The notes beneath the pieces are model-generated. The model was not told the origin of the DNA. It searched no databases and saw only the letters and a program-made list of their open reading frames with translations. This document shows positions 1-64,000 of a stretch of 64,000 nucleotides of DNA, in pieces. Where the stretch lies: the NCBI RefSeq assembly GCF_009914755.1, contig NC_060933.1. One strand, given 5' to 3'. The stretch is from the human T2T-CHM13v2.0 reference genome, Homo sapiens. Both the position numbers and the translations under genes were made by a program. Every line of letters begins with the position of its first letter. Position 1 is the stretch's first letter.

Positions 1-3000
1 ATTCCATTCCACTCGATTCCATTCCATTCCACTCTGGTTGATTCCATTCCTTTTCATTCCACTCGAAAACATTCCCTTCTATTCCACTCGGAATGATTCC
101 ATTCCATTCCATTCCATTCCATTCCATTTCGTTCCATTACATTCTATTCTGTACCATTCCACTCCATTCCATTCCATTCCATTCCATGCCATTCCTCTCG
201 GGTTGATTCCATTCCTTTCCATTCCATTCGGGTTGAGTCCATTCCATTCCATTCCTTTCCATTCCATTCCATTCCATTGCACTCGGGTTGATTCCATTCC
301 ATTCCATTCCGTTCCATTCCGGATGACTCCATTCCATTGCATTCCATTCCATTCCATTCCCCTGCACTCGGTTTCATTACATTCCATTCCATTCACTTCC
401 ATTCCATTCCATTCCATTCCATTCCATTCCATTCCATTCCATTCCATTCCAATCGAGTTGATTCCATTCCATTCCATTCCATTCCATTCAATTCCGAATG
501 ATGTCATTCCATTGCCTTCCATTCCATTCCATTCCCCTGCACTCGGGTTGATTCCATTCCATTCCATTCCATCCCATTCCATTCCATTCCATTCCATTTC
601 GTTCCATTCCATTCTATTCCGTACCATTCCATTCCATTCCATTCCATTCCATTCCAATCGAGTTGATTCCATTCCATTCCATTCCATTCCATTCAATTCC
701 GAATGATGTCATTCCATTGCCTTCCATTCCATTCCATTCCCCTGCACTCGTGTTGATTCCATTCCATTCCACTCCATACCATTCCATTCCATTCCATTCC
801 ATTCCATTCCATTCCATTCCATTCCATTCCGTTCCATTCCGTTCCATTCCATTCCATTCCATTCTATTCGGGTTAATTCCATTCCATTCCATTCCATTCC
901 ATTCTATTCCATTCCATTGCAATCGAGTTGAATCCATTGCATTTCATGCCATTCCATTCCATTCCATTCCATTCCGGAAGATTCCATTCCATTGCATTCC
1001 ATTCCATTCCATTCCCCTGCACTCGCGTTGATTCCATTCCATTCCATTCCATTCCATTCCATTCCATTCCATTCCATTCCGTTCCATTCCGTTCCGTTCC
1101 ATTCCATTCTATTCCATTCCATTCCATTCCATTCCTTTCCGTTCCATTCCATTCCATTCCATTCCATTCTATTTGGGTTAATTCCATTCCATTCCATTCG
1201 ACTGCAATCGAGTTGATTCCATTCCATTCCATTCCATTCCATTCCATTCCATTCCATTCCTTTCCATTACATTACGGATGATTCCATTCCATTGCATTCC
1301 ATTCCATTCCATTCCCCTGTACTCGGGTTGATTCCATTCCATTCCATTCCAATCCATGCCATTCCACTCGTATTGATTCCATTCTTTCCATTCCATTCAA
1401 GTTGAATCCATTCCATTGCATTCCATTACATTCGATTCCATTCGATTGCACTCGGGTTGATTCCATTCCATTGTATTCCATTCCATTCCATTCCATTCCA
1501 TTCCATTCCATTCCATTCCGTTCCATTCCATTCCATTACATTCGGATTGATTCTATTCAATTCCCTTACACTCCATTACATTCCATTCCATTCGGGTAGT
1601 TTCCATTCCATTCCTCTCCATTCCATTGCACTCGGGTTGATTCCATTCCATTGCATTCCATTCCATACCATTCAATTCCATTCCGTTCCATTCCATTCCA
1701 TTACATTCGGATTGATTCTATTCAACTCCCTTACTCTCCATTACATTCGATTGCATTCGGGTTGTTCAATTCCATTCCATTCCATTCCACTCCATTCCAT
1801 TGCACTCGGGTTGATTCCATTCCATTCCATTCCATTCCGGAAGATTCCATTCCATTGCATTCCCTTACATTCCATTCCCCTGCACTCGCGTTGATTCCAT
1901 TCCATTCCATTCCATTCCATTGCATTCCATTGCATTCCATTCCCCTGCACTCAGGTTGATTCCATTCCATTCCATTCCATTCCATTCCATTCCATTCCAT
2001 TCCATTCTATTCGCGTTAATTCCATTCCACTCCATTCCATTACATTCCATTGCAATCGACTTGATTCCATTCCATTCCATTCCATTCCATTCAAGTCCTT
2101 TCCATTCCATTCCACTCGTGTTGATTCCATTTTATTAGTTTCCATTCCATTCCATTCCCTTCCATTCCACTCTGGTTGATTCCATTCCTTTCCATTCCAC
2201 TCGAATTCATTCCCTTCTATTCCACTCGGAATGATTCCATTCTATTCCGTTCCATTCCATTCCATTTCGTTCCATTCCATTTTATTCCGTACCATTCCAT
2301 TCCATTCCATTCCATTACATTACATTCCATTCCATTCCATTCCATGCCATTGCACTCGGGTTGATTCCATTGCTTTCCATTCCATTTGGGTTGAATCCAT
2401 TCCATTCCATTCCATTCCATTCCATTCCATTCCATTCCATTCAATTGCACTAGGTTTGATTCCATTCCACTGCATTCCATTCCATTCCATTCAATTCCAT
2501 TCCATTCCATTCCATTCCATTCCATTCCATTCCCCTGCACTCGGGTTCATTCCATTCCATTCCATTTACTTCCATTCCATTCCATTCCATTCCATTCCAT
2601 GCCATTCCACTCGCGTTGATTCCATTCCCTTCCATTCCATTAGAGTTGAATCCATTCCATTCCATTCCATTCCATTCCATTCCATTCCATTCCATTGCAC
2701 ACGGGTTCATTCCATTCCATTCCATTCCATTCCCTTACATTCCATTTCGTTACATTCCATTCTATTCCGTACCATTCCATTCCATTCCATTCCATTCCAT
2801 TCCATTCCATTCCATGCCATTCCACTCGGGTATATTCCATTCCTTTTAATTCCATTCGGGTTGAATCCATTCCATTCCATTCCATTCGATTCCATTACAT
2901 TGCACTCGGGTTGATTCCATTCCATTCCATTCCATTACATTTCATTCCATTCCATTCCATTACATTTCATTCCATTCCATTCCATTCCATTTCATTCAAT

Positions 3001-6000
3001 TCCATTCCATTCCATGCCATTCCACTCGTGTTGATTCCATTCCTTTCCATTCCATTACATTTCATTCCATTCCATTCCATTCCATTTCATTCAATTCCAT
3101 TCCATTCCATGCCATTCCACTCGTGTTGATTCCATTCCTTTCCATTCCATTCGAGTTGAACCCATTCCATTCCATTCCATTCCATTCCATTCCATTCCGT
3201 TCCATTCCATTGCACGCGGGTTCATTCCATTCCATTCCGTTCCATTCCATTCCATTCCATTCCAGTCCATTCCATTGCATTCCATTTCGTTCCATTCCAT
3301 TCTATTCCGTACGATTCCATTGCATTCCATTCCATTCCATTCCTTTCCATTCCATTGAATTCGAGTTGATTCCATTCCATTCCGTTCCATTCCATTCCAT
3401 TCCATTCCATTCCGGATGATTCCATTCCACTGCATTCCATTCCATTAAATTCCCCTGCACTTGGAGTGATTCCTTTCCATTCTATTCCATTCCATTCCAT
3501 TCCATTCCATTCCATTCCATTCCATTCCATTCCATTTCATTGCAATCGAGTTGATTCCATTGCATTCCATTCCATTCCATTCCAGTCCTTTCCATTCCAT
3601 TCCACTCGGGTTGATTCCATTCTATTCCTTTCCATTCCATTCGATTCCATTCCATTCCACTCTGGTTGATACCATTCCTTTTCATTCCACTCGAAAACAT
3701 TCCCTTCTATTCCACTCGGAATGATTCCATTCCATTCCATTCCATTCCATTCCATTCCATTCCGTTTCGTTCCATTACATTCTATTCCGTACCATTCCAC
3801 TCCATTCCATTCCATTCCATTCCATGCCATTCCTCTCGGGTTGATTCCATTCCTTTCCATTCCATTCGGGTTGAATCCATTCCATTCCATTCCTTTCCAT
3901 TCCATTCCATTCCATTGCACTCGGGTTGATTCCATTCCATTCCATTCCGTTCCATTCCGGATGACTCCATTCCATTGCATTCCATTCCATTCCATTCCCC
4001 TGCACTCGGTTTCATTACATTCCATTCCATTCACTTCCATTCCATTCCATTCCATTCCATTCCATTCCATTCCATTCCATTTCGTTCCATTCCATTCTAT
4101 TCCGTACCATTCCATTCCATTCCATTCCATTCCATTCCATTCCATTCCATTCCATTTCCTTCCATTCCATTCCATTCCATTCCATTCCATTCCATTCCAT
4201 TCCATTTCCTTCCATTCCATTCCATTCCATTCCATTCCATTCCATTCCATTCATTTCCTTCCATTCCATTCCATTCCATTCCATTCCATTCCATTCCATT
4301 TCCTTCCATTCCATTCCATTCCATTCCATTCCATTCCATTCCATTCTATTAGGGTTAATTCCATTCCATTCCATTCCATTCCACTCCATTCCATGCCATT
4401 CAACGCGGGTTTATTCCATTCCTTTCCATTCCATTCGTGTTGAATCCATTCCATTCCATTCCATTCCATTCGATTCCATTACACTGCACTCGTGTTGATT
4501 CCATTCCATTCCACTCCATACCATTCCATTCCATTCCATTCCATTCCATTCCGTTCCATTCCGTTCCATTCCATTCCATTCCATTCTATTCGGGTTAATT
4601 CCATTCCATTCCATTCCATTCCATTCTATTACATTCCATTGCAATCGAGTTGAATCCATTGCATTTCATGCCATTCCATTCCATTCCATTCCATTCCGGA
4701 AGATTCCATTCCATTGCATTCCATTCCATTCCATTCCCCTGCACTCGCGTTGATTCCATTCCATTCCATTCCATTCCATTCCATTCCATTCCATTCCGTT
4801 CCATTCCGTTCCGTTCCATTCCATTCTATTCCATTCCATTCCATTCCATTCCTTTCCGTTCCATTCCATTCCATTCCATTCCATTCTATTTGGGTTAATT
4901 CCATTCCATTCCATTCGACTGCAATCGAGTTGATTCCATTCCATTCCATTCCATTCCATTCCATTCCATTCCTTTCCATTACATTACGGATGATTCCATT
5001 CCATTGCATTCCATTCCATTCCATTCCCCTGTACTCGGGTTGATTCCATTCCATTCCATTCCAATCCATGCCATTCCACTCGTATTGATTCCATTCTTTC
5101 CTTTCCATTCAAGTTGAATCCATTCCATTGCATTCCATTACATTCGATTCCATTCGATTGCACTCGGGTTGATTCCATTCCATTGTATTCCATTCCATTC
5201 CATTCCATTCCATTCCATTCCATTCCATTCCGTTCCATTCCATTCCATTACATTCGGATTGATTCTATTCAATTCCCTTACACTCCATTACATTCCATTC
5301 CATTCGGGTAGTTTCCATTCCATTCCTCTCCATTCCATTGCACTCGGGTTGATTCCATTCCATTGCATTCCATTCCATACCATTCAATTCCATTCCGTTC
5401 CATTCCATTCCATTACATTCGGATTGATTCTATTCAACTCCCTTACTCTCCATTACATTCGATTGCATTCGGGTTGTTCAATTCCATTCCATTCCATTCC
5501 ACTCCATTCCATTGCACTCGGGTTGATTCCATTCCATTCCATTCCATTCCGGAAGATTCCATTCCATTGCATTCCATTACATTCCATTCCCCTGCACTCG
5601 CGTTGATTCCATTCCATTCCATTCCATTCCATTGCATTCCATTGCATTCCATTCCCCTGCACTCAGGTTGATTCCATTCCATTCCATTCCATTCCATTCC
5701 ATTCCATTCCATTCCATTCCATTCTATTCGCGTTAATTCCATTCCACTCCATTCCATTACATTCCATTGCAATCGACTTGATTCCATTCCATTCCATTCC
5801 ATTCCATTCAAGTCCTTTCCATTCCATTCCACTCGTGTTGATTCCATTTTATTAGTTTCCATTCCATTCCATTCCCTTCCATTCCACTCTGGTTGATTCC
5901 ATTCCTTTCCATTCCACTCGAATTCATTCCCTTCTATTCCACTCGGAATGATTCCATTCTATTCCGTTCCATTCCATTCCATTTCGTTCCATTCCATTTT

Positions 6001-7850
6001 ATTCCGTACCATTCCATTCCATTCCATTCCATTCCATTCCATTCCATTACATTCCATTCCATTCCATTCCATGCCATTCCACTCGGGTTGATTCCATTGC
6101 TTTCCATTCCATTTGGGTTGAATCCATTCCATTCCATTCCATTCCATTCCATTCCATTCCATTCAATTGCACTAGGTTTGATTCCATTCCACTGCATTCC
6201 ATTCCATTCCATTCAATTCCATTCCATTCCATTCCATTCCATTCCATTCCATTCCATTCCATTCCATTCCCCTGCACTCGGGTTCATTCCATTCCATTCC
6301 ATTTACTTCCATTCCATTCCATTCCATTCCATTCCATTCCATGCCATTCCACTCGCGTTGATTCCATTCCCTTCCATTCCATTAGAGTTGAATCCATTCC
6401 ATTCCATTCCATTCCATTCCATTCCATTCCATTGCACACGGGTTCATTCCATTCCATTCCATTCCATTCCCTTACATTCCATTTCGTTACATTCCATTCT
6501 ATTCCGTACCATTCCATTCCATTCCATTCCATTCCATTCCACTCCATTCCATGCCATTCCACTCGGGTATATTCCATTCCTTTTAATTCCATTCGGGTTG
6601 AATCCATTCCATTCCATTCCATTCGATTCCATTACATTGCACTCGGGTTGATTCAATTCCATTCCATTCCATTACATTTCATTCCATTCCATTCCATTCC
6701 ATTTCATTCAATTCCATTCCATTCCATGCCATTCCACTCGTGTTGATTCCATTCCTTTCCATTCCATTACATTTCATTCCGTTCCATTCCATTCCATTTC
6801 ATTCAATTCCATTCCATTCCATGCCATTCCACTCGTGTTGATTCCATTCCTTTCCATTCCATTCGAGTTGAACCCATTGCATTCCATTCCATTCCATTCC
6901 ATTCCATTCCGTTCCATTCCATTGCACGCGGGTTCATTCCATTTCATTCCGTTCCATTCCATTCCATTCCATTCCATTCCATTCCATTCCATTACATTCC
7001 ATTTCGTTCCATTCCATTCTATTCCGTACGATTCCATTGCATTCCATTCCATTCCATTCCTTTCCATTCCATTGAATTCGAGTTGATTCCATTCCATTCC
7101 GTTCCATTCCATTCCATTCCGGATGATTCCATTCCACTGCATTCCATTCCATTAAATTCCCCTGCACTTGGAGTGATTCCTTTCCATTCTATTCCATTCC
7201 ATTCCATTCCATTCCATTCCATTCCATTCCATTCCATTTCATTGCAATCGAGTTGATTCCATTGCATTCCATTCCATTCCATTCCAGTCCTTTCCATTCC
7301 ATTCCACTCGGGTTGATTCCATTCTATTCCTTTCCATTCCATTCGATTCCATTCCATTCCACTCTGGTTGATACCATTCCTTTTCATTCCACTCGAAAAC
7401 ATTCCCTTCTATTCCACTCGGAATGATTCCATTCCATTCCATTCCATTCCATTCCATTCCATTCCATTCCATTCCGTTTCGTTCCATTACATTCTATTCC
7501 GTACCATTCCACTCCATTCCATTCCATTCCATTCCATGCCATTCCTCTCGGGTTGATTCCATTCCTTTCCATTCCATTCGGGTTGAATCCATTCCATTCC
7601 ATTCCTTTCCATTCCATTCCATTCCATTGCACTCGGGTTGATTCCATTCCATTCCATTCCGTTCCATTCCGGATGACTCCATTCCATTGCATTCCATTCC
7701 ATTCCATTCCCCTGCACTCGGTTTCATTACATTCCATTCCATTCACTTCCATTCCATTCCATTCCATTCCATTCCATTCCATTCCATTCCATTTCGTTCC
7801 ATTCCATTCTATTCCGTACCATTCCATTCCATTCCATTCCATTCCATTCC
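1..7850 (+). repeat. Truncated collinear copies of the A unit forming a ~3.6-3.7 kb tandem pair (about 740-4380 and 4380-7850)
   Basis: Landmark TCGAAAACATT at 63, 3691, 7393 (also 13886, 14881); TTGGAGTGATT at 3461, 7148, 13661; GCACTAGGTTTG at 2447, 6169, 12762. Positions 1-650 match ~14820-15450, sharing CTATTCTGTACC and GGGTTGAGTCC. Confidence 0.8.
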
Positions 7851-9199
7851 ATTCCATTCCATGCCATTACACTCGGGTTGATTCCATTGCTTTCCATTCC
7901 ATTTGGGTTGAATCCATTCCCCTGCAGTCGGGTTGTTTCCATTCCATTCCATTCCATTCCATTCCATTCCATTCCGTTCCGTTCCATTCCATTCCATTCC
8001 ATTCTATTCGGGTTAATTCCATTCCATTCCATTCCATTCCATTCCATTCCATTCCATTCCATTCCAATCGAGTTGATTCCATTCCATTCCATTCCATTCC
8101 ATTCCACTCCATTCCAGTCCTTTCCATTCCATTCCACTCGGGTTGATTCCAATGTATTCCTTTCCATTCCATTCCATTCCATTGCAATCGAGTTGATTCC
8201 ATTGCTTTGCATTCCATTCCATTCCATTCCATTCCGGATGATTCCATTCCATTGCATTCCATTCCATTCCATTCCCCTGCACTCGGGTTGATTCCATTCC
8301 ATTCCACTCCATTCCGTTCCATTCCATTCCATTCCGTTGTATTCGGGTTAATTCCATTCCATTCCATTCCATTCCATTCCATTCCATTCCATCACAATCG
8401 AGTTGGCTCCATTCCATTCCATTCCATTCCATTCCATTCCATTCCATTCCATTCCGGATGATTCCATTCCATTACATTGCGTTCCATTACATTCCCCTGC
8501 ACTCGGGTTGATTCCATTCCATTCTATTCCATTCCATTCGATTCCATTCCATTCCAATTCTTTCCATTCCATTCTATTCCGTACCATTCCATTCCATTCC
8601 ATACCATTCCATTCCATTCCATTCCATTCCATTCCGTTCCGTTCCGTTCCGTTCCGTTCCATTCCATTCCATTCCATTTTATTCGGGTTAATTCCATTCC
8701 ATTCCATTCCATTCCATTCTATTCCATTCCATTGCAATCGAGTTGAATCCATTGCATTCCATTCCATTCCATTCCGGAAGATTCCATTCCACTGCATTCC
8801 ATTCCATTCCATTCCCCTGCACTCGCGTTGATTCCATTCCATTCCATTCCATTCCATTCCATTCCATTCTATTCCGTTCCGTTCCATTCCATTCCATTCC
8901 ATTCCTTTCCGTTCCGTTCCATTCCATTCCATTCTATTCGGGTTAATTCCATTCCATTCCATTCGATTGCAATCCAGTTGATTCCATTCCACTCCATTCC
9001 ATTCCATTCCATTCCATTCCATTCCATTGCTTTCCATTCCATTACGGATGATTCCATTCCATTACATTACATTCCATTCCATTCCCCTGTACTCGGGTTG
9101 ATTCCATTCCATTCCATTCCATTCCATTCTATTCCATTCCATTCCATTCCATTCCGGAAGATTCCATTCCATTGCATTCCATTCCATTTCATTCCCCTG

Positions 9200-12100
9200 C
9201 ACTCACGTTGATTCCATTCCATTCCATTCCATTCCATTCAATTCCGAATGATGTCATTCCATTGCCTTCCATTGCATTCCATTCCCCTGCACTCGGGTTG
9301 ATTCCATTCCATTCCATTCCATCCCATTCCATTCCATTCCATTCCATTTCGTTCCATTCCATTCTATTCCGTACCATTCCATTCCATTCCATTCCATTCC
9401 ATTCCATTCCATTCCATTTCCTTCCATTCCATTCCATTCCATTCCATTCCATTCCATTCCATTCCATTCCATTCTATTAGGGTTAATTCCATTCCATTCC
9501 ATTCCATTCCATGCCATTCCACTCGGGTTGATTCCATTCCTTTCCATTCCATTCGAGTTGAATCCATTCCATTCCATTCCATTCCATTCCATTCCATTGC
9601 ACACGGGTTCATTTCATTCCATTCCATTCCATTCCATTTCGTTCCATTCCATTCTATTCCATACCATTCCATTCCATTCCATTCCATTAGACTCCATTCC
9701 ATGCCATTCCACTCGGTTTTATTCCATTCGTTTCCATTCCATTCGGGTTGAATCCATTGCATTCCATTCCATTCGATTCCATTACATTGCACTCGTGTTG
9801 TTTCCATTCCATTCCATTCCATTCCATTCCATTCCATGCCATTCCACTCGGGTTGATTTCATTACATTCCGTTCCATTCGAGTCGAACCCATTCCATTCC
9901 ATTCCATTCCATTCCATTCCATTCCAATCCATTGCACACGTGTTCACTCCATTCCATTCCATTCCATTCCATTCCGTTCCATTTCGTTCCATTCCATTCT
10001 ATTCGGTACCATTACATTCCATTCCATTCGGTACCATTCCATTCCATTCCAATCCATTCCATTCCATGCCATTCCACTTGGGTTGATTCCCTTCCTTTCC
10101 ATTCCATTCGGGTTGAATCCATTCCATTCCATTCCATTCCATTCCATTCCATTCCATTCCATTCCTTTCAATTCCATTGCACACGGGTTGGTTCCATTCC
10201 ATTCCTTTCCGTTCCATTCCGGATGACTCCATTTCATTGCATTCCATTCCATTCCATTCCCCTGCACTCGGGTTCATTACCTTCCATTCCATTTACTTCC
10301 ATTCCATTCCATTCCATTCTATTCTGGTTAATTCCATTCCATTCCATTCCATTCCATTCCATTCCATTCCATTCCATTCCATTCCATTCCATTGCAATCG
10401 AGTTGATTCCATTCCATTCCATTCAATTCCGGATGATTCCATTCCATTGCCTTCAATTCCATTCCATTCCCCTGCACTCGGGTTGATTCCATTCCATTCC
10501 ATTCCATTCCATTCCATTCCATTCCATTCCATTTCATTCCATTCCATTTCGTTCCTTTCCATTCTATTCCGTACCATTCCATTCCATTCCATTCCATTCC
10601 ATTCCATTCCATTCCATGCCATTCCACTCGGGTTGATTCCATTCCTTTCCATTCCATTCGAGTTGAATCCATTCCAATCCATTCCATTCCATTCGATTCC
10701 ATTCCATTGCACACGGGTTCATTCCATTCCATTCCATTCCATTCCATTCCATTCCATTCCATTCCATTCCATTTCGTTCCATTCCATTCTATTCCGTACC
10801 ATTCCATTCCATTCCATTCCATTCCATTCCACTCCACTTCATGCCATTCCACTCGGGATTATTCCATTCCTTTCCATTCCATTCGGGTTGAATCGATTCC
10901 ATTCCATTCCATTCCATTCCATTCCATTACATTGCACTCGGGTTGATTCCATTCCATTCCATTCCATTCCATTCCACTCCATTCCATGCCATTCCACGCG
11001 GGTTTATTCCATTCCTTTCCATTCCATTCGTGTTGAATCCATTCCATTCCATTCCATTCCATTCGATTCCATTACACTGCACTCGTGTTGATTCCATTCC
11101 ATTCCACTCCATACCATTCCATTCCATTCCATTCCATTCCATTCCATTCCATTCCGTTCCATTCCGTTCCATTCCATTCCATTCCATTCTATTCGGGTTA
11201 ATTCCATTCCATTCCATTCCATTCCATTCTATTCCATTCCATTGCAATCGAGTTGAATCCATTGCATTTCATGCCATTCCATTCCATTCCATTCCATTCC
11301 GGAAGATTCCATTCCATTGCATTCCATTCCATTCCATTCCCCTGCACTCGCGTTGATTCCATTCCATTCCATTCCATTCCATTCCATTCCATTCCATTCC
11401 GTTCCATTCCGTTCCGTTCCATTCCATTCTATTCCATTCCATTCCATTCCATTCCTTTCCGTTCCATTCCATTCCATTCCATTCCATTCTATTTGGGTTA
11501 ATTCCATTCCATTCCATTCGACTGCAATCGAGTTGATTCCATTCCATTCCATTCCATTCCATTCCATTCCATTCCTTTCCATTACATTACGGATGATTCC
11601 ATTCCATTGCATTCCATTCCATTCCATTCCCCTGTACTCGGGTTGATTCCATTCCATTCCATTCCAATCCATGCCATTCCACTCGTATTGATTCCATTCT
11701 TTCCATTCCATTCAAGTTGAATCCATTCCATTGCATTCCATTACATTCGATTCCATTCGATTGCACTCGGGTTGATTCCATTCCATTGCATTCCATTCCA
11801 TTCCATTCCATTCCATTCCTTTCCGTTCCATTCCATTTCATTACATTCAGATTGATTCTATTCAATTCCCTTACACTCCATTACATTCCATTCCATTCGG
11901 GTAGTTTCCATTCCATTCCTCTCCATTCCATTGCACTCGGGTTGATTCCATTCCATTGCATTCCATTCCATACCATTCAATTCCATTCCGTTCCATTCCA
12001 TTCCATTACATTCGGATTGATTCTATTCAACTCCCTTACTCTCCATTACATTCGATTGCATTCGGGTTGTTCAATTCCATTCCATTCCATTCCACTCCAT

Positions 12101-16640: not shown

Positions 16641-16649
16641 TCCAGTCCA

Positions 16650-33780: not shown

Positions 33781-33789
33781 TCCATTCCA

Positions 33790-39058: not shown

Positions 39059-39100
39059 TTCCATTCCATTCCATTGCACACGGAATGGAATGGAATGGAA
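39059..39100. other. Inversion breakpoint within the satellite array (CATTC to GGAAT switch)
   Basis: The sequence reads ...ccattccattccattGCACACGGaatggaatggaatggaa... The left motif TGCACACGG(GTTCATT) is truncated after ACGG (39080-39083). An intact paralogue of the left flank lies in reverse complement at ~46775-47130. Confidence 0.97.
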
Positions 39101-53100: not shown

Positions 53101-56100
53101 ATGGAAAGGAATGGAATCAACCCGAGTGGAATGGCATGGAATGGAATGGAATGGAATGGTATGGAATGGAATGGAATGGAATGGAATGGAATGGAATGGA
53201 ATGGAATGGATTGGAATCAACCCGAGTGTAATGTAATGGAATCGAATGGAATGGAATGGAATGGAATGGATTCAACCCAAATGGAATTGAAAGGAATGGA
53301 ATCAACCTGAGTGGAATGGCATGGAATGGACTGGAATGGAATGGAATGGTACGGAATAGAATGGAATGGAACGAAATGGAATGGAATGGAATGGAATGGA
53401 ATGGAATGGAATGGAATGGAATGGAATGAACCCGTGTGCAATGGAATGGAATCGAATGGAATGGAATGGAATGGAAAGGATACAACTCGAATGGAATGGA
53501 AAGGAATGAAATCAACCCGAGTGGAATGGCATGGACTGGAATGGAATGGAATGGAATGGAATGGAATGGAATTGAATGGTGCGGATTAGAATCGAATGGA
53601 ATGAAATGGAATGGAATGGAATGGAATGGAATGGAAACAACCCGAGTGCATGGTAATGGAATGGAATGAAAGGCAATGGAATGGAATCATCCGGAATGGA
53701 ATGGAATGGAATGGAATGGAATGGAATGGAATGGAATGGAATCAACTCGATTGCAATGGAATGGAATGGAATGGAATGGAATGGAATGGAATGGAATGGA
53801 ATTAACCCGAATAGAATCGAAGGGAATGGAATGTAATGGAATGGAATGGAATGGAAGGGAATGGAATGTAATGGAATGGAATGGAATTAACCCGAATAGA
53901 ATGGAATGGAACGGAAAGGAAGGGAATGGAATGGAATGTAATCAACTCGAGTGCAGGGGAAAGCAATGCAATGGAATGAAATGGAATGGAGTCATACGAA
54001 ATGGAAGGGAATGGAATGGAATCAACCAGAGTGCAATGGAATGGAGTGGCATGGAATGGAATAGAATGGAAACAACACGAATGGAATAGAATGTATTGGA
54101 GTGTAAGGGAATTGAATAGAATCAATCCGAATGTAATTGAATGGAACGGAAAGGAATGGAATGGAATGGAATGGAATGGAATGGAATGGAATGGAATGGA
54201 ATTAAATGGAATGGCATGGAATGGAATGGAATCAACCCGAGTTCAATGGAATGGAATGGAATGGAATGGAATGGAATGGAATGGAATCAACTCGATTGCA
54301 ATGGAATGGAATGGAATGGAATGGAATGGAATGGAATGGAATTAACCCTACTAGAATGGAATGGAATGGAATGGAATGGAATGGAATGGAATGGAATGGA
54401 ATGGAATTAACCCTATTAGAATGGAATGGAATGGAATGGAATGGAATAGAATGGAATGGAAGGGAATGGAATGGAATGGAATGGAATGGAATTAACCCGA
54501 ATAGAATGGAATGGAATGGAATGGAATGGAATGGAATGGAATGGAATGGGATCAACCCGAGTGAAATGGAATGGAATCGAAAGGAATGGAATGGAATGGA
54601 ATGGTTTCAACCCGAATGGAATGGAAAGGAATGGAATCAACCCGAGTGGAATGGAATGGAATGGAATGGAATGGAATGGGTTCAACTCGAATGGAATGGA
54701 AAGGAATGGAATTAACCCGAGTGGAATGGCATGGAATGGAATGGAATGGAATGGAATGGAAGGTTATGGAATGGAATGGAATTAACCTGAACAGAATGGA
54801 AGGGAATGGAATGGAACGGAACGGAATGGAATGGAATGGAATGGAATGGAATGGAATGGAATGCAATGGAATGGGATCAACCCGAGTACAGGGGAATGGA
54901 ATGCAATGGAATGCATTGGAATGGAATCATCCGGAATGGAATGGAATGGAATGGAATGCAATGGAATGGAATCAATCAACCCGAGTGCAATAGAATGCAG
55001 TGGAATGGAATGGAATGGTATGGAAACTACCCGAATGGAATAGAATGTAATGGAGTGTAAGGGAATTAAAAAGAATCAATCCGAATGTAATGGAATTGAA
55101 TGGAACGGAATGGAATGGAATGGAATGGAATGGAATGGAATTAACCCGAATAGAATGGAATGGAATGGAATGGAATGGAATGGAAGTAAATGGAATGGAA
55201 TGGAATGAACCCGAGTGCAGGGGAATGGAATGGAATGGAATGCAATGGAATGGAGTCATCCGGAATGGAACAGAAAGGAATGGAATGGAATCAACCCGTG
55301 TGCAATGGAATGGAAAGGAATGGAATGGAATGGAATGGAATGGATTCAACCCGAATGGAATGGAAAGGAAGGGAATTATCCCAAGTGGAATGGCATGGAA
55401 TGGAATGGAATGGAATGGAAGGGAATGGAATGGAATGGAATGGTACCGAATAGAATGGAATGGAACGAAATGGAATAGAATGGAATGGAATGGAATGGAA
55501 TCAACCCGAGTGCAATGGAATGGAGTGGAATGGAATGGAATGACATGGAAACAACCCGAATGGAATGGAATGAAATGGAGTGTAAGGGAATTGAATACAA
55601 TCAATCCGAATGTAATGGAATGGAATGGAACGGAATGGAATGGAATGGAATGGAATGCAGTGGAATGGAATCAAACCTAGTGCAATGGAATGGAATGGAA
55701 TGGAATGGAATGGAATGGAATGGATTCAACCCAAATGGAATGGAAAGCAATGGAATCAACCCGAGTGGAATGGCATGGAATGGAATGGAATGGAATGGAA
55801 TGGAATGGAATGGAATGGTACGGAATAGAATGGAATGGAACGAAATGGAATGGAATGGAATGGAATGGAACGGAATGGAATGGAATCAACTCGATTGCAA
55901 TGGAATGTAATGGAATGGAATGGAATGCAATTAACGCGAATAGAATGGAATGGAATGGAATGGAACGGAATGGAATGGAATGGAATGGAATGGAATCGAA
56001 TGGAATCAACCTGAGTGCAGGGGAATGGAATGGAATGGAATGCAATGGAATGTAATGGAATGGAATGCAATGGAATCAACTCGATTGCAATGGGATGGAA

Positions 56101-56299
56101 TGGAATGGAATGGAAGGGAAAGGAATAGAATGGAATTAACCTGAACAGAATGGAATGGAATGGAATGGAACGGAATGGATTGGAACGGAATGGAATGGAA
56201 TGGAATGGAATGAACCCGTGTGCAATGGATTGGAATGGAATGGAATGGAATGGAATGGAATGGGTTCAACTCGAATGGAATGGAAAGGAATGGAATCAA

Positions 56300-59200
56300 C
56301 ACGAGTGGAATGGCATGGAATGGAATGGAATGGAATGGAATGGAATGGAATCAACCCGACTGCAGGGGAATGGAATGGAATGGAATGCAATGGAATGGAT
56401 TCAACTTGAATGGAATGGAAAGAATGGAATCAACACGAGTGGAATGGCATGGATTGGAATGGAATGGAATGGAATCAACCCGAGTACAGGGGAATGGAAT
56501 GGAATGGAATGCAATGGAATGGAATCATCCGTAATGGAATGGAAAGGAATGGAATGGAATGGAATGGAATGGAATGGAATGGAATGGAATCAACTCGATT
56601 GCAATCGAATGGAATGGAATGGAATTAACCCGAATAGAATGGAATGGAATGGAATGGAACGGAACGGAACGGAATGGAATGGATTGGAATGGAATGGAAT
56701 GGAATGGAATGGAACGGAAAGGAATGCAATGGAATGGAATGGAATGGAATGGAATGGAATGGAATGGAATAAACCCGAGTGCAATGGAATGGAGTGGAAT
56801 GGAATGGAATGGAATGGAACAACCCGAATGGAATGGAATGTAATGGAGAGTAAGGGAGTTGAATAGAATCAATCCGAATGTAACGGAATGGAATGGAACG
56901 GAATGGAATTGAATGGAATGGAATGGAATGCAATGGAATGGAATCAACCCGAGTGCAATGGAATGGAGAGGAATGGAATGGAATGGAATGGAAACTACCC
57001 GAATGGAATGGAATGTAATGGATTGTAAGGGAATTAAATAGAATCAATCCGAATGTAATGCAATGGAATGGAACGGAATGGAATGGAATGGAATGGAATG
57101 GAATGGAATGGAATGGAATGCAATGGAATGGAATCAACCCGAGTGCAATCGAATGGAATCGAATGGAATGGAATGCAATGGAATGGATTCAACTTGAATG
57201 GAATGGAAAGAATGGAATCAACACGAGTGGAATGGCATGGATTGGAATGGAATGCAATGGAATCAACCCGAGTACAGGGGAATGGAATGGAATGGAATGC
57301 AATGGAATGGGAACATCCGGAAGGGAATGGAAAGGAATGGAATGGAATGGAATGGAATGGAATGGAATGGAATGGAATGGAATCAACTTGATTGCAATCG
57401 AATGGAATGGAATGGAATTAACCCGAATAGAATGGAATGGAATGGAATGGAACGGAACGGAATGGAATGGAATGGAATGGAATGGAATGGAACGGAACGG
57501 AACGGAATGGATGGAATGGAATGGAATGGAATGGAATGGAATCAACGCGAGTGCAGGGGAATGGAATGGAATGGAATGCAATGGAATGGAATCTTCCGGA
57601 ATGGAATGGAATGGAATGAAATGCAATGGATTCAACTCGAATGCAATGGAATGGAACAGAATGGAATGGAATGGAATGGAATGGAATGGAATTAACCCGA
57701 ATAGAATGGAATGGAATGGAATGGAACAGAATGGAACGGAATGGAACGGAATGGAATGGAATGGAATGGTATGGAATGGAATCGAATGGTACGGAATAGA
57801 ATGGAATGGAACGAATTGTAATGGAATGGAATTGAATGGAATGGAATGGAATGGAATGGAATCAACGCGAGTGCAGGGGAATGTAATGGAACGGAATGCA
57901 ATGGAATGGAATCATCCGGAATGGAATGGAATGGAATGGAATGGAATGGAATGGAATGGAATCAACCCGATGCAATGGAATGGAGAGGAATGGAATGGAA
58001 TGGAATGGAAACTACCCGAATGGAATGGAATGTAATGGAGAGTAAGGGAGTTGAAAAGAATCAATCCGAATGTAATGGAATGGAATGGAACGGAATGGAA
58101 TGGAATGGAATGGAATGGAATGCAATGCAATGGAATGGAATCAACCCGAGTACAATGGAATGGAATGGAATGGAATGGAATGGAATGGAATGGAATGGAA
58201 TGGAATGGAATGCAATGGAATGGAATCTTCCGGAATGCAATGGAATGGAATGGAATGGAATGGAATGGAATGCAATGGATTCAACTCGATTGCAATGGAA
58301 TGGAATAGAATGGAATGGAATGGAATGGAATGGAATGGAATTAAACCGAATAGAATGGAGTGGAATGGAATGGAACGGAACAGAACGGAACGGAACGGAA
58401 CGGAGTGGAATGGAATGGAATGGAATTGTATGGAATGGAATGGAATGGTACGGAATAGAACGGAATGGAAAGAATTGGAATGGAATGGAATCGAATGGAA
58501 TGGAATGGAATGGAATGGAATCAACCCGAGTGCAGGGGAATGTAATGGAACGGAATGCAATGGAATGGAATCATCCGGAATGGAATGGAATGGAATGGAA
58601 TGGAATGCAATGGAATGGAATCAACCCGAGTGCAATGGAATGGAGAGGAATGGAATGGAATGGAATGGAAACTACCCGAATGGAATGGAATGTAATGGAG
58701 TGTAAGGGAATTGAATAGAATCAATCCGAATGTAATGGAATGGAATGGAACGGAATGGAATGAAATGGAATGGAATGGAATGGAATGGAATGGAATGCAA
58801 TGGAATGGAATCAACCCGAGTGCAATCGAATGGAATCGAATGGAATAGAATGCAATGGAATGGATTCAACTTGAATGGAATGGAAAGAATGGAATCAACA
58901 CGAGTGGAATAGCATGGATTGGAATGGAATGGAATGGAATCAACCCGAGTACAGGGGAATGGAATGGAATGGAATGCAATGGAATGGAATCATCCGTAAA
59001 GGAATGGAAAGGAATGGAATGGAATGGAATGGAATGGAATGGAATGGAATGGAATGGAATCAACTCGATTGCAATCGAATGGAATGGAATGGAATTAACC
59101 CGAATAGAATGGAATGGAATGGAATGGAACGGAACGGAATGGAATGGAATGGAATGGAATGGAATGGAACGGAACGGAACGGAATGGAATGGAATGGAAT

Positions 59201-62200
59201 GGAATGGAATGGAATGGTATCAACGCGAGTGCAGGGGAATGGAATGGAATGGAATGCAATGGAATGGAATCTTCCGCAATGGAATGGAATAGAATGGAAT
59301 GGAATGAAATGCAATGGATTCAACTCGATTGCAATGGAATGGAATAGAATGGAATGGAATGGAATGGAATGGAATTAATCCGAATAGAATGGAATGGAAT
59401 GGAATGGAACGGAATGGAACGGAATGGAATGGAATGGAATGGAATGCAATGGTATGGAATGGAATGGAATGGTACGGAATAGAATGGAATGGAACGAATT
59501 GTAATGGAATGGAATTGAATGGAATGGAATGGAATGGAATGGAATGAACGTGAGTGCAGGGGAATGTAATGGAACGGAATGCAATGGAATGGAATCATCC
59601 GGAATGGAATGGAATGGAATGGAATGGAATGGAATGGAATCACCCCGAGTGCAATGGAATGGAGTGGAATGGAATGGAATGGAATGGAACAACACGAATG
59701 GAGTGGAATGTAATGGAGAGTAAGGGAGTTGAATAGAATCAATCCGAATGTAATGGAATGGAATGCAACGGAATGGAATGGAATGGAATGGAATGGAATG
59801 CAATGGAATTGAATCAACCCGAGTACAATGGAATGGAATGGAATGGAATGGAATGGAATGGAATGGAATGGAATGGAATGGAATGGAATGATACGGAATA
59901 GAATGGAATGGAACGAAATGGAATGGAATGGAATGGAATGGAATGGAATGGAATGGAATGAAATCATTCCGAGTGGAATAGGAGGGAATGTATTCGAGTG
60001 GAATGGAAAGGAATGGTATCAACCAGAGTGGAATGGAGGGGAATGGAATGGAATGGAAACTAATAGAATGGAATCAACCCGAGTGGAATGGAATGGAAAG
60101 GACTGGAATGGAATGGAATGGAATGGAATCAACTCGATTGTAATGGAATGGAATGGAATGGAATGGAACGGAATGGAATGGAATGGAATGGAATTAACCC
60201 GAATACAATGGAATGGAATGGAATGGAACAGAATGGAGTGGAATGGAATGGAATCAACCGGAGTGCAGGGGAATGGAATGGAATGGAATGCAATGGAATG
60301 GAATCACCCGGAATGGAATGGAATGGAATGGAATGCAAAGCAATGGAATCAACTCGATTGCAATGGAATGGAATGGAATGGAAAGGAATACATTGGAATC
60401 AACGCGAGTGGAATGGAATGGAAAGGACTGGAATGGAGTGGAATGGAATGGAATGGAATGGAATGGAATCAACTCGATTGGAATGGAATGGAATGGAATG
60501 GAATGGAATTAACCCGAATAGAATGGAATGGAATGGAATGGAACGGAACGGAATGGAATGGAATGGAATGGAATGGAATGGAATGGAATGGAAACAACCC
60601 GACTGCAGGGGAATGGAATGGAATGGAATGCAATGGAATGGATTCAACTTGAATGGAATGGAAAGAATGGAATCAACACGAGTGGAATGGCATGGATTGG
60701 AATGGAATGGAATGGAATCAACCCGAGTACAGGGGAATAGAATGGAATGGAATTCAATGGAATGGAATCATCCGTAATGGAATGGAAAGGAATGGAATGG
60801 AATGGAATAGAATGAAATGGAATCAACTCGATTGCAATCGAAAGGAATGGAATGGAATTAACCCGAATAGAATGGAATGGAATGGAATGGAACGGAACGG
60901 AACGGAATGGAATGGATTGGAATGGAATGGAATGGAATGGAATGGAATGGAACGGAATGGAATGCAATGGAATGGAATGGAATCAACGCGAGTGCAGGGG
61001 AATGGAATGGAATGGAATGCAATGGAATGGAATCTTCCGGAATGGAATGGAATGGAATGGAATGGAATGGAATGGAATAAACCCGAGTGCAATGGAATGG
61101 AGTGGAATGGAATGGAATGGAATGGAACAACCCGAATGGAATGGAATGTAATGGAGAGTAAGGGAGTTGAATAGAGTCAATCCGAATGTAATGGAATGGA
61201 ATGGAACGGAATGGAATTGAATGGAATGGAATGGAATGCAATGGAATGGAATCAACCCGAGTGCAATGGAATGGAGAGGAATGGAATGGAATGGAATGGA
61301 AACTACCCGAATGGAATGGAATGTAATGGAGTGTAAGGGAATTGAATAGAATCAATCCGAATGTAATGGAATGGAATGGAACGGAATGGAATGGAATGGA
61401 ATGGAATGGAATGCAATGGCATGGAATCAACCCGAGTGCAATCGAATGGAATCGAATGGAATGGAATGCAATGGAACGGATTCAACTTGAATGGAATGGA
61501 AAGAATGGAATCAACACGAGTGGAAGGGCATGGATTGGAATGCAATGGAATGGAATCAACTCGAGTACAGGGGAATGGAATGGAATGGAATGCAATGGAA
61601 TGGAATCATCCGTAATGGAATGGAAAGGAATGGAATGGAATGGAATGGAATGGAAGGGAATGGAATCAACACGGTTGCAATCGAATGGAATGGAATGGAA
61701 TTAACCCGAATAGAATGGAATGGAATGGAATGGAACGGAACGGAATGGAATGGAATGGAATGGAATGGAATGGAACGGAACGGAATGGAATGGAATGGAA
61801 TGGAATGGAATGGAATCAACGCGAGTGCAGGGGAATGGAATGGAATGGAATGCAATGGAATGGAATGGAATGCAATGGAATGGAATCTTCCGTAATGGAA
61901 TGGAATGGAATGGAATGAAATGCAATGGATTCAACTCGACTGCAATGGAATGGAATAGAATGGAATGGAATGGAATGGAATGGAATTACCCCAAATAGAA
62001 TGGAATGGAATGGAACGGAATGGAATGGAACGGAATGGAACGGAATGGAATGGAGTGGAATGGTATGGAATGGAATGGAATGGTACGGAATAGAATGGAA
62101 TGGAACGAATTGTAATGGAATGGAATTGAATAGAATGGAATGGAATGGAATGGAATCAACGCGAGTGCAGGGGAATGTAATGGAACGGAATGCAATGGAA

Positions 62201-64000
62201 TGGAATCATCCGGAATAGAATGGAATGAAATGGAATGGAATGGAATGGAATCAACCCGAGTGCAATGGAATGGAGTGGAATGGAATGGAATGGAATGGAA
62301 CAATCCGAATGGAATGGAATGTAATGGAGAGTAAGGGAGTTGAATAGAATCAATCAGAATGTAATGGAATGGAATGCAACGGAATGGAATGGAATGGAAT
62401 GGAATGCAATGGAATGGAATCAACCCGAGTACAATGGAATGGAATGGAATGGAATGGAATGGAATGGAATGGAATGCCTTCAAACCGAATGGAATGGAAA
62501 GGAATGGAATCAACACGAGTGGAATGGAATGGAATGGAATGGAATGGAATGGAATGGAATGGAATGATACGGAATAGGATGGAATGGAACGAAATGGAAT
62601 GGAATGGAATGGAATGGAATGGAATGGAATGGAATGGAATGGAATGGAATCGTTCCGAGTGGAATAGGAGGGAATGTATTCGGGTGGAATGGAAAGGAAT
62701 GGAATCAACCAGAGTGGAATGGAAGGGAATGGAATGGAATGGAAACTAATAGAATGGAATCAACCCTAGTGGAATGGAATGGAAAGGACTGGAATGGAAA
62801 GGAATGGAATGGAATGGAATGGAATGGAATGGAATGGAATGGAATCAACGCGAGTGCAGGAGAATGGAATGGTATGGAATGGAATGGAATGGAATGGAAT
62901 GTAATGGAATCAAACCGAGTGCAGGGGAATGTAATGGAACGGAATGCAATGGAAAGGAATCATCCGGAATGGAATGGAATGGAATGGAATGGAATCAACC
63001 CGAGTGCAATGGAATGGAGTGGAATGGAATGGAATGGAATGGAACAACCCGAATGGAATGGAATGTAATGGAGAGTAAGGGAGTTGAAAAGCATCAATCC
63101 GAATGTAATGGAATGGAATGGAACGGAATGGAATTGAATGGAATGGAATGGAATGCAATGGAATGGGATCAACCCGGGTACAATGTAATGGAATGGAATG
63201 GAATGGAATGGAACGGAATGGAATGGAATGGAATGCAATGGAATGGAATCTTCCGGAATGGAAAGGAATGGAATGGAATGGAATGGAATGGAATGCAATG
63301 GATTCAACTCGATTGCAATGGAATAGAATAGAATGGAATGGAATGGAATCGAATGGAATGGAATGGAATGGAATCAACCTGAGTGCAAAGGAATGGAGAG
63401 GAACGGAATGGAATGGAATGGAAACTACCCGAATGGAATGGAATGTAATGGAGTGTAAGGGAATTGAATAGAATCAATCCGAATGTAATGGAATGGAATG
63501 GAACGGAATGGAATGGAATGGAATCAACCCGAGTGCAATTGAATGGAGTGGAATGGAATAGAATGGAATGGAACAACCCGAATGGAATGGAGTGGAATGG
63601 AGACTAAGGGAGTTGAATAGAATCAATCCGAATGTAATGGAATGGAATGCAACGGAATGGAATGAAATGGAATGGAATGGAATGCAATGGAATGGAATGG
63701 AATCAACACGAGTGCAGGGGAATGGAATGGAATGGAATGCAATGGAATGGAATCTTCCGGAATGGAATGGAATGGAATGGAATGGAATGAAATGCAATGG
63801 ATTCAACTCGATTGCAATGGAATGGAATAGAATGGAATGGAATGGAATGGAATGGAATGGAATTAACCCGAATAGAATGGAATGGAATGGAATGGAACGG
63901 AATGGAACTGAATGGAATGGAATGGAATGGAATGGAATGGAATGGTATGAAATGGAATAGAATGGTACGGAATAGAATGGAATGGAACGAATTGTAATGG
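56300..64000 (-). repeat. Domain B sequence in inverted orientation (B')
   Basis: Reverse complements of B landmarks are present (GGAATAGGAGGGAATGTATTCG at ~59975 and ~62661; TGCCTTCAAACCG at ~62475). About 59.2-62.8 kb is collinear with the reverse complement of ~20.1-23.65 kb. Confidence 0.8.
57589..63762. promoter_or_regulatory. Dispersed perfect heat shock elements GAAtcTTCcgGAA, right arm
   Basis: Starts at 57589, 58223, 61030, 63246, 63750. Broken copies lie at ~59267 (cgCAA) and ~61883 (cgTAA). Confidence 0.6.

What the first reader, a model, noticed from the sequence alone, without database searches (positions are those of the whole stretch)
972..63762. A satellite variant forms perfect canonical heat shock elements, giving a dispersed HSF1 platform
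Seen: the variant ATTCCGGAAGATTCC places TTC-cg-GAA-ga-TTC in exact alternating 5-bp register, with 23 perfect copies counted by eye (18 left, 5 right). Pure (GGAAT)n gives only direct nGAAn repeats, so these are the only canonical inverted triplets I found. The frequent sibling TTCcgGATgaTTC is one mismatch away. Established: HSF1 binds Sat III (mainly 9q12), nucleates nuclear stress bodies and drives G-rich-strand Sat III transcription. Inference: this variant may explain which HSat3 sub-arrays recruit HSF1, and its spacer CpG could make occupancy sensitive to methylation.
Basis: partly seen in the sequence, partly recalled or inferred. Interest (0 to 1): 0.8.

Follow-up and report, generated by a model that had tools for sequence, protein, structure and literature searches.

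The report
Perfect heat-shock elements in chromosome 9 satellite
One single-base variant of a chromosome-9 satellite repeat spells a textbook binding site for the heat-shock factor HSF1 and has been copied thousands of times, which plausibly explains why this region seeds stress bodies, but the idea is largely in print already.

Summary
The window has 22 exact ATTCCGGAAGATTCC and 23 TTCnnGAAnnTTC sites (18 on +, 5 on -), and these are its only perfect three-unit HSEs.

They are not 23 independent events. Every copy sits in the same ~130-bp module and was amplified with the satellite; 440 other 15-mers are at least as frequent.

Genome-wide the 15-mer occurs 12,700 times, with none on chr1-8. 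Sampling puts it across almost the whole 9q12 array: 18 of 19 10-kb samples, 0.53/kb.

The Y HSat3 array has a similar density of perfect HSEs built from three different k-mers (14,589 copies). In 33 kb of HSat3 on chr14, 15, 21 and 22 I found none. Chr9 plus Y therefore hold about 36% of all perfect trimeric HSEs in this genome, and they are the two reported primary stress-body loci.

The GGATG sibling also occurs on chrY and chr7 in CpG-decayed form, so GGAAG is probably a chr9-derived T-to-A change.

I found no sign of selection: CpG retention is equal in HSE and sibling.

HSF1 occupancy could not be tested here. Franklin et al. (2024/25) already report HSF1 motifs in HSat3 sub-regions that match ChIP-seq signal. 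Methylation sensitivity remains open.

Verdict: a real feature, largely known, with a useful k-mer-level refinement.

The parts
972..984 (+). perfect HSE TTCCGGAAGATTC
1835..1847 (+). perfect HSE TTCCGGAAGATTC
4694..4706 (+). perfect HSE TTCCGGAAGATTC
5547..5559 (+). perfect HSE TTCCGGAAGATTC
8772..8784 (+). perfect HSE TTCCGGAAGATTC
9152..9164 (+). perfect HSE TTCCGGAAGATTC
11297..11309 (+). perfect HSE TTCCGGAAGATTC
12140..12152 (+). perfect HSE TTCCGGAAGATTC
19161..19173 (+). perfect HSE TTCCGGAAGATTC
20899..20911 (+). perfect HSE TTCCGGAAGATTC
21787..21799 (+). perfect HSE TTCCGGAAGATTC
23560..23572 (+). perfect HSE TTCCGGAAGATTC
24523..24535 (+). perfect HSE TTCCGGAAGATTC
27250..27262 (+). 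perfect HSE TTCCGGAAGATTC
28979..28991 (+). perfect HSE TTCCGGAAGATTC
31337..31349 (+). perfect HSE with changed spacer, TTCAGGAAGATTC (no CpG); not the named 15-mer
33046..33058 (+). perfect HSE TTCCGGAAGATTC
33795..33807 (+). perfect HSE TTCCGGAAGATTC
57589..57601 (-). perfect HSE TTCCGGAAGATTC (array inverted here)
58223..58235 (-). perfect HSE TTCCGGAAGATTC
61030..61042 (-). perfect HSE TTCCGGAAGATTC
63246..63258 (-). perfect HSE TTCCGGAAGATTC
63750..63762 (-). perfect HSE TTCCGGAAGATTC
3410..62969 (.). 35 copies of the one-mismatch sibling TTCCGGATGATTC (28 on +, 7 on -), in homologous modules with more varied flanks
1..35237 (+). block A: ATTCC-strand HSat3 carrying the CCGGA(A/T)G module; 18 HSEs; CpG 24.8/kb; local duplication periods of about 3.71 and 6.6 kb
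35238..53683 (.). block B: module-poor HSat3 with no perfect HSE and only 3 degenerate CCGGATG copies; CpG 20.0/kb; contains the strand flip
39078..39085 (.). strand-flip junction of the array (ATTCC on + changes to GGAAT on +)
53684..64000 (-). block C: inverted counterpart of block A (shares 60-mers with 16-32 kb in reverse complement); 5 HSEs; CpG 25.3/kb

Best explanation
The 13-mer TTCCGGAAGATTC is a genuine, geometrically perfect three-unit heat-shock element. It lies at one fixed position of a ~130-bp diverged module of the chromosome-9 HSat3 array.

It differs by one base (GGATG to GGAAG) from an older module form that chr9, chrY and a chr7 array share, so it most likely arose once by a T-to-A change in the chr9 lineage (inferred). 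Tandem and segmental amplification then carried it to about 12,700 copies, roughly one per 2 kb, over nearly the whole ~28-Mb 9q12 array (shown).

Upon heat shock, HSF1 trimers would bind these sites with much higher affinity than the surrounding head-to-tail GGAAT repeats. About 15,000 such sites per chromosome 9 would concentrate HSF1, seed the nuclear stress body and drive Pol II transcription of the flanking repeats (inferred from established HSE biology and published ChIP-seq; not tested here).

The Y array reaches the same site density with three unrelated HSE k-mers. The other HSat3 arrays I sampled have none, which fits the primary versus secondary hierarchy of stress-body loci.
For: Anatomy: searches show 23 sites, all in one module context.

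Genome copy number: 12,700, with a reversed-pattern control of 3, and the first hit at chr9:49,162,019. The listing is contig-sorted, as searches show, so there are no hits on chr1-8.

Chr9 sampling: 101 copies in 190 kb (0.53/kb), present in 18 of 19 samples. Multiplied by ~28 Mb, this gives about 15,000, enough to account for the whole genome count.

Cross-array contrast in perfect HSEs: chr9 0.62/kb, chrY 0.67/kb, and 0 in 33 kb of chr14/15/21/22 HSat3.

Genome accounting: there are 76,189 perfect HSEs in total. Subtracting 12,700 for chr9 and 14,589 for the three Y k-mers leaves 48,900, close to the reversed-pattern control of 43,994. The reverse-strand excess of 14,055 matches the Y k-mers (14,064 reverse against 525 forward).

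Ancestry: the GATG form is more numerous (20,563). It fills the proximal array edge where GAAG is absent. It also occurs as ATTCCAGATGATTCC in a chr7 array and once per unit on chrY.

Site quality: the pyrimidine-purine spacer and the A before TTC match preferences described in PMC8379338.

Occupancy (literature only): HSF1 ChIP-seq is enriched where HSF1 motif density in HSat3 is high (10.1101/2024.10.22.616524). Perfect HSEs in the Y unit coincide with HSF1 ChIP there (PMC7889540).
Against: No binding data could be examined here, so occupancy of this k-mer rather than its neighbours is not shown.

HSF1 binds a chr9 SatIII clone (pHuR98) whose nGAAn organisation the authors called non-canonical (PMC2173303). 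HSF1 DBD has been crystallised on head-to-tail SatIII repeats (cited in PMC8379338). Secondary stress bodies form on other chromosomes (PMC9032817), including arrays where I found no HSE. Perfect HSEs are therefore not strictly required.

The contrast between arrays rests on very few independent mutational events: one on chr9, three on Y, none elsewhere. It also rests on only 33 kb of non-9, non-Y HSat3. HSat3 on chr10-13 and 16-20 was not sampled, and on chr1-8 only absence of this 15-mer is shown.

There is no evidence of selection. The copy number is ordinary. GAA ranks only 12th among the middle triplets of TTCnnXYZnnTTC. CpG retention is equal to that of the sibling. With an anchor independent of the HSE, 4 of 41 modules have a broken core.
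Confidence: 0.6

Rival explanations
1. Neutral hitch-hiker. The variant is just one of many subfamily-diagnostic substitutions amplified by unequal exchange. HSF1 is drawn to 9q12 by the sheer mass of head-to-tail nGAAn units, by unusual DNA structure or by chromatin state, and the match to the HSE consensus adds little.
For: A 22-copy variant is ordinary in this window: 440 15-mers are at least as frequent. No conservation signal separates it from the sibling. pHuR98, described as lacking canonical organisation, still binds HSF1 in vitro, and secondary structure was proposed as the cause (PMC2173303). HSF1 DBD crystallises on head-to-tail SatIII DNA (cited in PMC8379338). Chr9 is also by far the largest array (28 Mb).
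Against: The 8-Mb chr15 array has a comparable CpG density and abundant pentamers (69.9 per kb against 112.4 on chr9) but no inverted pair at all in 16 kb, and the literature seen does not list it among the primary targets. The Y array is a primary target and carries perfect HSEs. Published ChIP-seq follows HSF1 motif density, whereas pentamer-based TEAD motifs are spread evenly.
Confidence: 0.25
2. The site serves, or also serves, another factor. CCGGAAG is the core of class-I ETS sites (recalled, not from a call), which are known to be CpG-methylation sensitive. The sibling CCGGATG keeps a GGA(A/T) ETS core. On this reading the module is an ETS-type platform and not, or not only, an HSF1 one.
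For: CCGGAAG occurs 23 times in the window and CCGGATG 48 times. The CpG lies inside the would-be ETS core.
Against: None of the 23 copies has the preferred CCGGAAGT; the next base is A. Franklin et al. state that ETS-family motifs, apart from ETV5-FOXO1, are not heavily enriched in HSat3. No ETS factor appeared in the passages I read.
Confidence: 0.07
3. Methylation-gated HSE. The sites bind HSF1 only when the spacer CpG is unmethylated, so occupancy tracks satellite hypomethylation.
For: The CpG sits at the TTC/GAA junction, where the major groove is widened and Asn74 contacts the base before GAA (PMC8379338). Targeted methylation of the SatIII locus lowers SatIII RNA (PMC8144429).
Against: Heat-shock activation of pericentric repeats occurred without any change in their methylation, and the hypomethylation route was HSF1-independent (PMC2770647). 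About 95% of copies still carry CG, the same as the sibling, so there is no differential germline footprint. I found no paper on methylated-HSE binding.
Confidence: 0.2

Closest known systems
HSF1 motif-rich sub-regions of HSat3 arrays mapped on T2T-CHM13 (Franklin et al., bioRxiv 10.1101/2024.10.22.616524)
   Same: Same genome, same satellite, same factor. HSF1 motifs are unevenly placed within HSat3, and ChIP-seq from heat-shocked cells is enriched where they are dense (passages read).
   Different: In the passages I read, no k-mer, module, copy number or per-array contrast is given. Figures and supplements were not visible to me and may contain some of this.
Perfect HSEs in the Yq12 SatIII (DYZ1) 3.56-kb unit (Penin et al. 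2021, PMC7889540)
   Same: Canonical HSEs interspersed in SatIII at a primary stress-body locus. I recovered them in the Y of this assembly: three k-mers with 4,415-5,279 copies each at a ~3.55-kb period.
   Different: The sequences differ (AGAAC/AGAAA middle units, not GGAAG) and the origins are independent. The paper reports four per unit, whereas I saw 2-3 per 4-kb sample. The chr9 sites derive from one base change in a module that the Y still carries in its GATG form.
pHuR98 / 9q12 SatIII binding by HSF1 (Jolly et al. 2002, PMC2173303)
   Same: Same locus; direct, DBD-dependent HSF1 binding that is competed by an HSE.
   Different: The authors judged the nGAAn organisation of that 158-bp clone non-canonical, and binding was weaker than to an HSE. 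The variant here is fully canonical. I could not compare it with the clone sequence, which was not available to me.
Promoter HSEs of HSP genes (e.g. HSPA1A)
   Same: At least three alternating inverted nGAAn units in 5-bp register, with a pyrimidine-purine step between TTC and GAA.
   Different: There are exactly three units and never four or more. The sites are embedded in head-to-tail pentamers and repeated about 12,700 times in heterochromatin, rather than lying upstream of a defined TSS.
TEAD/NFAT platforms on HSat3 (same preprint)
   Same: Satellite DNA acting as a megabase-scale transcription-factor platform.
   Different: TEAD sites are the pentamer itself and are uniform in all arrays. 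The HSE is a rare variant (0.5-0.6 per kb) found, among the arrays I sampled, only in two.

Membership tests
Canonical trimeric heat-shock element (HSF1 site) | Three contiguous nGAAn units in alternating orientation at an exact 5-bp register | tested here: met
   23 of 23 sites match TTCNNGAANNTTC exactly.
Canonical trimeric heat-shock element (HSF1 site) | Pyrimidine-purine dinucleotide between TTC and the following GAA; favourable base before TTC | tested here: met
   The spacer is CG in 22 of 23 sites and AG in 1. A precedes both TTC triplets. The criterion is taken from PMC8379338.
Canonical trimeric heat-shock element (HSF1 site) | Occupied by HSF1 trimers on heat shock | not testable with these tools
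   There is only indirect published support: ChIP-seq follows motif density in HSat3.
Canonical trimeric heat-shock element (HSF1 site) | Confers heat-inducible transcription on flanking DNA | not testable with these tools
   9q12 SatIII is heat-induced and HSF1-dependent (PMC2171959), but this has not been assigned to this site.
Chromosome-9-specific HSat3 subfamily (called HSat3B5 in the literature; label recalled, from no call) | Pentamer-based array with diagnostic variants confined to the 9q12 block | tested here: met
   The 15-mer has 0 hits on chr1-8, and the first hit is at chr9:49.16 Mb. It is present in 18 of 19 samples between 49.5 and 76.5 Mb and absent from 45 kb of sampled HSat3 on Y, 14, 15, 21 and 22. 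HSat3 on chr10-13 and 16-20 was not sampled.
Functional element under purifying selection | Core positions more conserved than spacers, flanks and paralogous non-HSE copies | tested here: inconclusive
   Deviation is 0.4% in the core against 3.1% in the spacer and 1.6-3.8% in the flanks among 121 modules. The copies are not independent, however. With an upstream anchor, 4 of 41 modules have a broken core. CpG retention is 101 of 105 for the HSE against 143 of 150 for the sibling.
Class-I ETS site (consensus recalled) | CCGGAAGT octamer | tested here: not met
   CCGGAAG occurs 23 times and CCGGAAGT 0 times in the window.

The most novel reading that the evidence does not exclude
The two arrays that act as primary stress-body seeds each acquired perfect HSEs independently. 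Chr9 did so by one T-to-A change in an ancient module that chrY and chr7 keep in non-HSE form; Y did so by three unrelated sites. Together they now hold about 27,000 of the 76,189 perfect trimeric HSEs in the genome, while the other HSat3 arrays sampled have none. On this reading, HSE content, not pentamer mass, sets the hierarchy of HSF1 targets. The amplification of HSE-bearing units was favoured because a large, titratable HSF1 and Pol II sink is useful in the stress response.
Probability: 0.2. Interest if true: 0.65.

Novelty: already known. Interest (0 to 1): 0.4.

Why it matters
Jolly et al. (2002) raised the puzzle of how HSF1 can choose 9q12 when the SatIII pentamers are head-to-tail rather than inverted. 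A defined 13-mer present about 12,700 times, with a natural one-base control (the GGATG sibling, 20,563 copies) interleaved in the same array, turns that question into a simple read-level test on existing ChIP-seq or long-read footprinting data.

The counts also supply a number that a 2022 review called unknown: the number of candidate HSF1 sites at these loci. I estimate about 15,000 per chr9 array and about 14,500 on the Y of this assembly. They suggest why chr15's 8-Mb array is only a secondary target.

The gain is incremental. HSF1 binding to HSat3 through motif-rich sub-regions is already published.

Tried and rejected
1. The dinucleotide-shuffle significance was rejected as the relevant null for a satellite and replaced by k-mer rank and middle-triplet rank.

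2. I tried to read the per-chromosome distribution of the 15-mer from the genome search. The listing stops after 100 places, so only 'none on chr1-8' can be read. Chr10-X could be addressed only by small samples.

Smaller samples were used instead. Of the 20 blind 1-kb probes on chr13/14/21/22, 15 missed HSat3. One of 5 chr15 probes, 2 of 5 chrY probes and the chr9 48.0-Mb sample also missed. All were left out of the densities.

4. The conservation test of HSE core against flanks was judged inconclusive, because the copies share amplification history.

5. The CpG-retention contrast between HSE and sibling showed no difference. The genome-wide sibling total is confounded by ATTCCAGATGATTCC copies on chrY and chr7.

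6. One-mismatch HSEs do not discriminate between arrays: 1.36/kb on chr9, but also 1.8/kb at chr21:2.0 Mb and 0.62/kb on chr15.

7. A text search for the k-mer found only an unrelated paper; the reverse-complement spelling was not searched. A search for 'HSF1' plus 'methyl-HT-SELEX' found nothing. A search for 'HSF1' plus 'heat shock element' plus 'CpG methylation' returned nothing relevant, judged from the listing alone.

Full report
**Observation.** The window is HSat3 throughout. ATTCC pentamers lie on the + strand up to about 39,080 and GGAAT after that. The named 15-mer ATTCCGGAAGATTCC occurs 22 times: 17 on + between 971 and 33,808, and 5 on - between 57,588 and 63,763. The generic perfect three-unit HSE, TTCNNGAANNTTC, occurs 23 times. 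The extra site is TTCAGGAAGATTC at 31,337. So is the 18/5 split. The sibling TTCCGGATGATTC occurs 35 times.

**Is it more than chance?** Against dinucleotide shuffles, yes: 2.89 +/- 1.55 expected, maximum 9. That is the wrong null for a satellite. All 23 copies sit in the same extended context: a pentamer run, the 13-mer, then CATTCCATTGCATTCC...CCCCTGCACTCGCGTTG. They are therefore copies of one variant, spread by local duplications with periods of about 3.71, 6.6, 1.38 and 21.6 kb. In the window, 440 of 8,112 distinct 15-mers are at least as frequent, and 150 of those are at least 4 mismatches from the pure repeat. Among TTCnnXYZnnTTC frames in 254 kb of chr9 sequence, GAA ranks 12th as middle triplet, with 141 cases against 211 for GAT. 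Copy number alone says nothing about function.

**Anatomy inside the window.** There are three blocks.
- Block A (1-35,237) carries the CCGGA(A/T)G module and 18 HSEs.
- Block B (35,238-53,683) has only three degenerate CCGGATG copies, no HSE and a lower CpG density (20.0/kb against 24.8 and 25.3). It contains the strand flip near 39,078-39,085.
- Block C (53,684-64,000) is an inverted relative of block A with 5 HSEs.

The HSE-free gap is 23.8 kb long. Inside blocks A and C the spacing is 0.4-7 kb.

**The module family.** I anchored on the 15 bases downstream of the site, which does not depend on the site's content. In 254 kb, the homologous position then reads ATTCCGGATGATTCC 129 times, ATTCCGGAAGATTCC 102 times and ATTACGGATGATTCC 80 times, plus minor forms. 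The HSE is thus one of three major paralogous states.

**Genome-wide.** The assembly's 24 contigs could be searched.
- The 15-mer has 12,700 copies (6,240 forward, 6,460 reverse; reversed-pattern control 3). The first is at chr9:49,162,019. Listings are sorted by contig, so chr1-8 have none.
- I took nineteen 10-kb samples every 1.5 Mb from 49.5 to 76.5 Mb. They hold 101 copies (0.53/kb), and 18 of the 19 have at least two; the 52.5-Mb sample has none. Multiplied by the ~28-Mb array length, this gives about 15,000. Chr9 alone can therefore account for the whole genome count.
- All perfect HSEs in those samples number 118 (0.62/kb). The minor forms are spacer variants such as GGAAGTTTC.
- The sibling has 20,563 copies, is also chr9-specific among chr1-9, and is very dense at 49.07-49.18 Mb, where the HSE form is almost absent.

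**Other arrays.**
- Three of five 4-kb samples in Yq12 hit HSat3. They carry 8 perfect HSEs (0.67/kb) built from different k-mers. Genome counts for those k-mers are 4,895, 5,279 and 4,415, nearly all on the Y at a ~3.55-kb period and on the reverse strand.
- On chr15, four of five 2-kb probes plus two 4-kb pieces (16 kb in all) are HSat3 with no perfect HSE and not even a two-unit inverted pair.
- HSat3 hit by blind probes on chr14 (5 kb), chr21 (6 kb) and chr22 (6 kb) also has none. That makes 0 in 33 kb, where chr9's density would predict about 20.
- One-mismatch sites do not separate the arrays.

**Genome accounting.** There are 76,189 perfect HSEs in total: 31,067 forward and 45,122 reverse. 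The reversed-pattern control gives 43,994. Removing the chr9 15-mer (12,700) and the Y k-mers (14,589) leaves 48,900, close to the control. The reverse-strand excess of 14,055 matches the Y k-mers. About 36% of all perfect trimeric HSEs in this genome therefore lie in two satellite arrays, and little room is left for others.

**Direction of change.** ATTCYRGATGATTCC totals 26,672. The 6,109 non-CG copies are mostly on the reverse strand. ATTCCAGATGATTCC occurs in a chr7 array (58.39-59.0 Mb) and once in each of the three Y HSat3 samples. The GATG module is therefore older than the chr9 array, and GAAG is most simply a chr9-derived T-to-A change. This is an inference; no outgroup genome was available.

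**Selection.** I found no convincing signal.
- Core positions deviate less (0.4%) than spacers (3.1%) and flanks (1.6-3.8%) in 121 modules. The copies share history, however, and an upstream-anchored set shows 4 of 41 broken cores.
- The spacer CpG is intact in 101 of 105 HSE copies and 143 of 150 sibling copies. Genome-wide, 12,700 of 13,444 ATTCYRGAAGATTCC are CG.

**What is known.**
- Jolly et al. 2002 (passages) showed direct HSF1 binding to 9q12 and to the pHuR98 clone. They noted that its nGAAn organisation differs from a canonical HSE.
- Penin et al. 2021 (passages) found four perfect HSEs in the 3,564-bp Y unit, detected HSF1 there by ChIP, and wondered whether Yq12 has more HSEs than 9q12. 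My counts make the two roughly equal.
- Vourc'h et al. 2022 (passages) say that the number of sites is unknown, and mention putative HSEs at 9q12 as unpublished.
- Franklin et al. 2024/25 (passages) scanned T2T-CHM13 and found HSF1 motifs in sub-regions of HSat3 arrays. They showed heat-shock HSF1 ChIP-seq enriched where motif density is high. I could not see their figures or supplements.
- Feng et al. 2021 (passages) give the structural preferences that this site meets. They also cite HSF1 DBD structures on head-to-tail SatIII DNA, which keeps low-affinity pentamer binding alive as a rival.

**Methylation.** Heat-shock activation did not require demethylation, and the hypomethylation route was HSF1-independent (Eymery et al. 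2009). Targeted methylation of the locus lowered SatIII RNA (Kanne et al. 2021). I found nothing on HSF1 binding to methylated HSEs.

**Verdict.** The variant is a real perfect HSE, specific to chr9 among everything I could check, and its presence together with the Y's own HSEs tracks the known primary stress-body loci. It marks almost the whole 9q12 array rather than particular megabase sub-arrays. Its abundance is explained by amplification. The principle is already published. The new content is the exact k-mer, its one-base natural control, the copy numbers and the contrast with other arrays.

Noticed in passing
window 39,060-39,110: The array switches strand here (...CCATTCCATTGCACAC | GGAATGGAATGG...). 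The G-rich strands on the two sides point away from the junction, so heat-induced G-rich transcripts would diverge from it. The junction lies inside the HSE-free block.
   Followed up: partly
window 35,238-53,683: An 18-kb block with the same pentamer density as its neighbours but a lower CpG density (20.0/kb against 24.8 and 25.3). It almost entirely lacks the CCGGA(A/T)G module.
   Followed up: partly
G000:C9:49,070,000-49,180,000 (listing; L001): The proximal edge of the 9q12 array is packed with the GGATG sibling, one every 0.1-1 kb, and has many TG-decayed copies. The HSE form first appears at 49,162,019. This looks like an older, more decayed edge sub-array.
   Followed up: partly
G000:C7:58,386,000-58,999,000 (listing) and L029, L031, L032: ATTCCAGATGATTCC, the sibling with a deaminated CpG, recurs in a chr7 pericentromeric array and once per unit in chrY HSat3. 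The module is therefore shared across HSat3 subfamilies.
   Followed up: partly
G000:C9:49,290,000-49,318,000 (listing): A regular ~6.36-kb higher-order period with three HSEs per unit, unlike the 3.7/6.6-kb periods in the window. Local higher-order structure varies along the array.
   Followed up: no
G000:C24:28,797,000-28,829,000 (listings): A run of Y HSat3 units with a ~2,377-bp period instead of the usual ~3.55 kb. It keeps two of the three HSE k-mers and appears to lack the CTTCSAGAACATTCC one (one search lists none there).
   Followed up: no
window, all 23 HSE sites: The HSE contains CCGGAAG, an ETS-like core with the CpG inside it, and the 8-bp palindrome TTCCGGAA. The preferred CCGGAAGT is never present.
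   Followed up: partly
L038 (chr15:16.0 Mb), L053 (chr21:10.0 Mb), L058 (chr22:13.0 Mb): Non-HSat3 probes near acrocentric centromeres show several head-to-head GAAnnTTC pairs per kb (about 7 in 2 kb at L038, 5 per kb at L053 and L058) but no three-unit HSE. They are probably another satellite family, which I did not identify.
   Followed up: no
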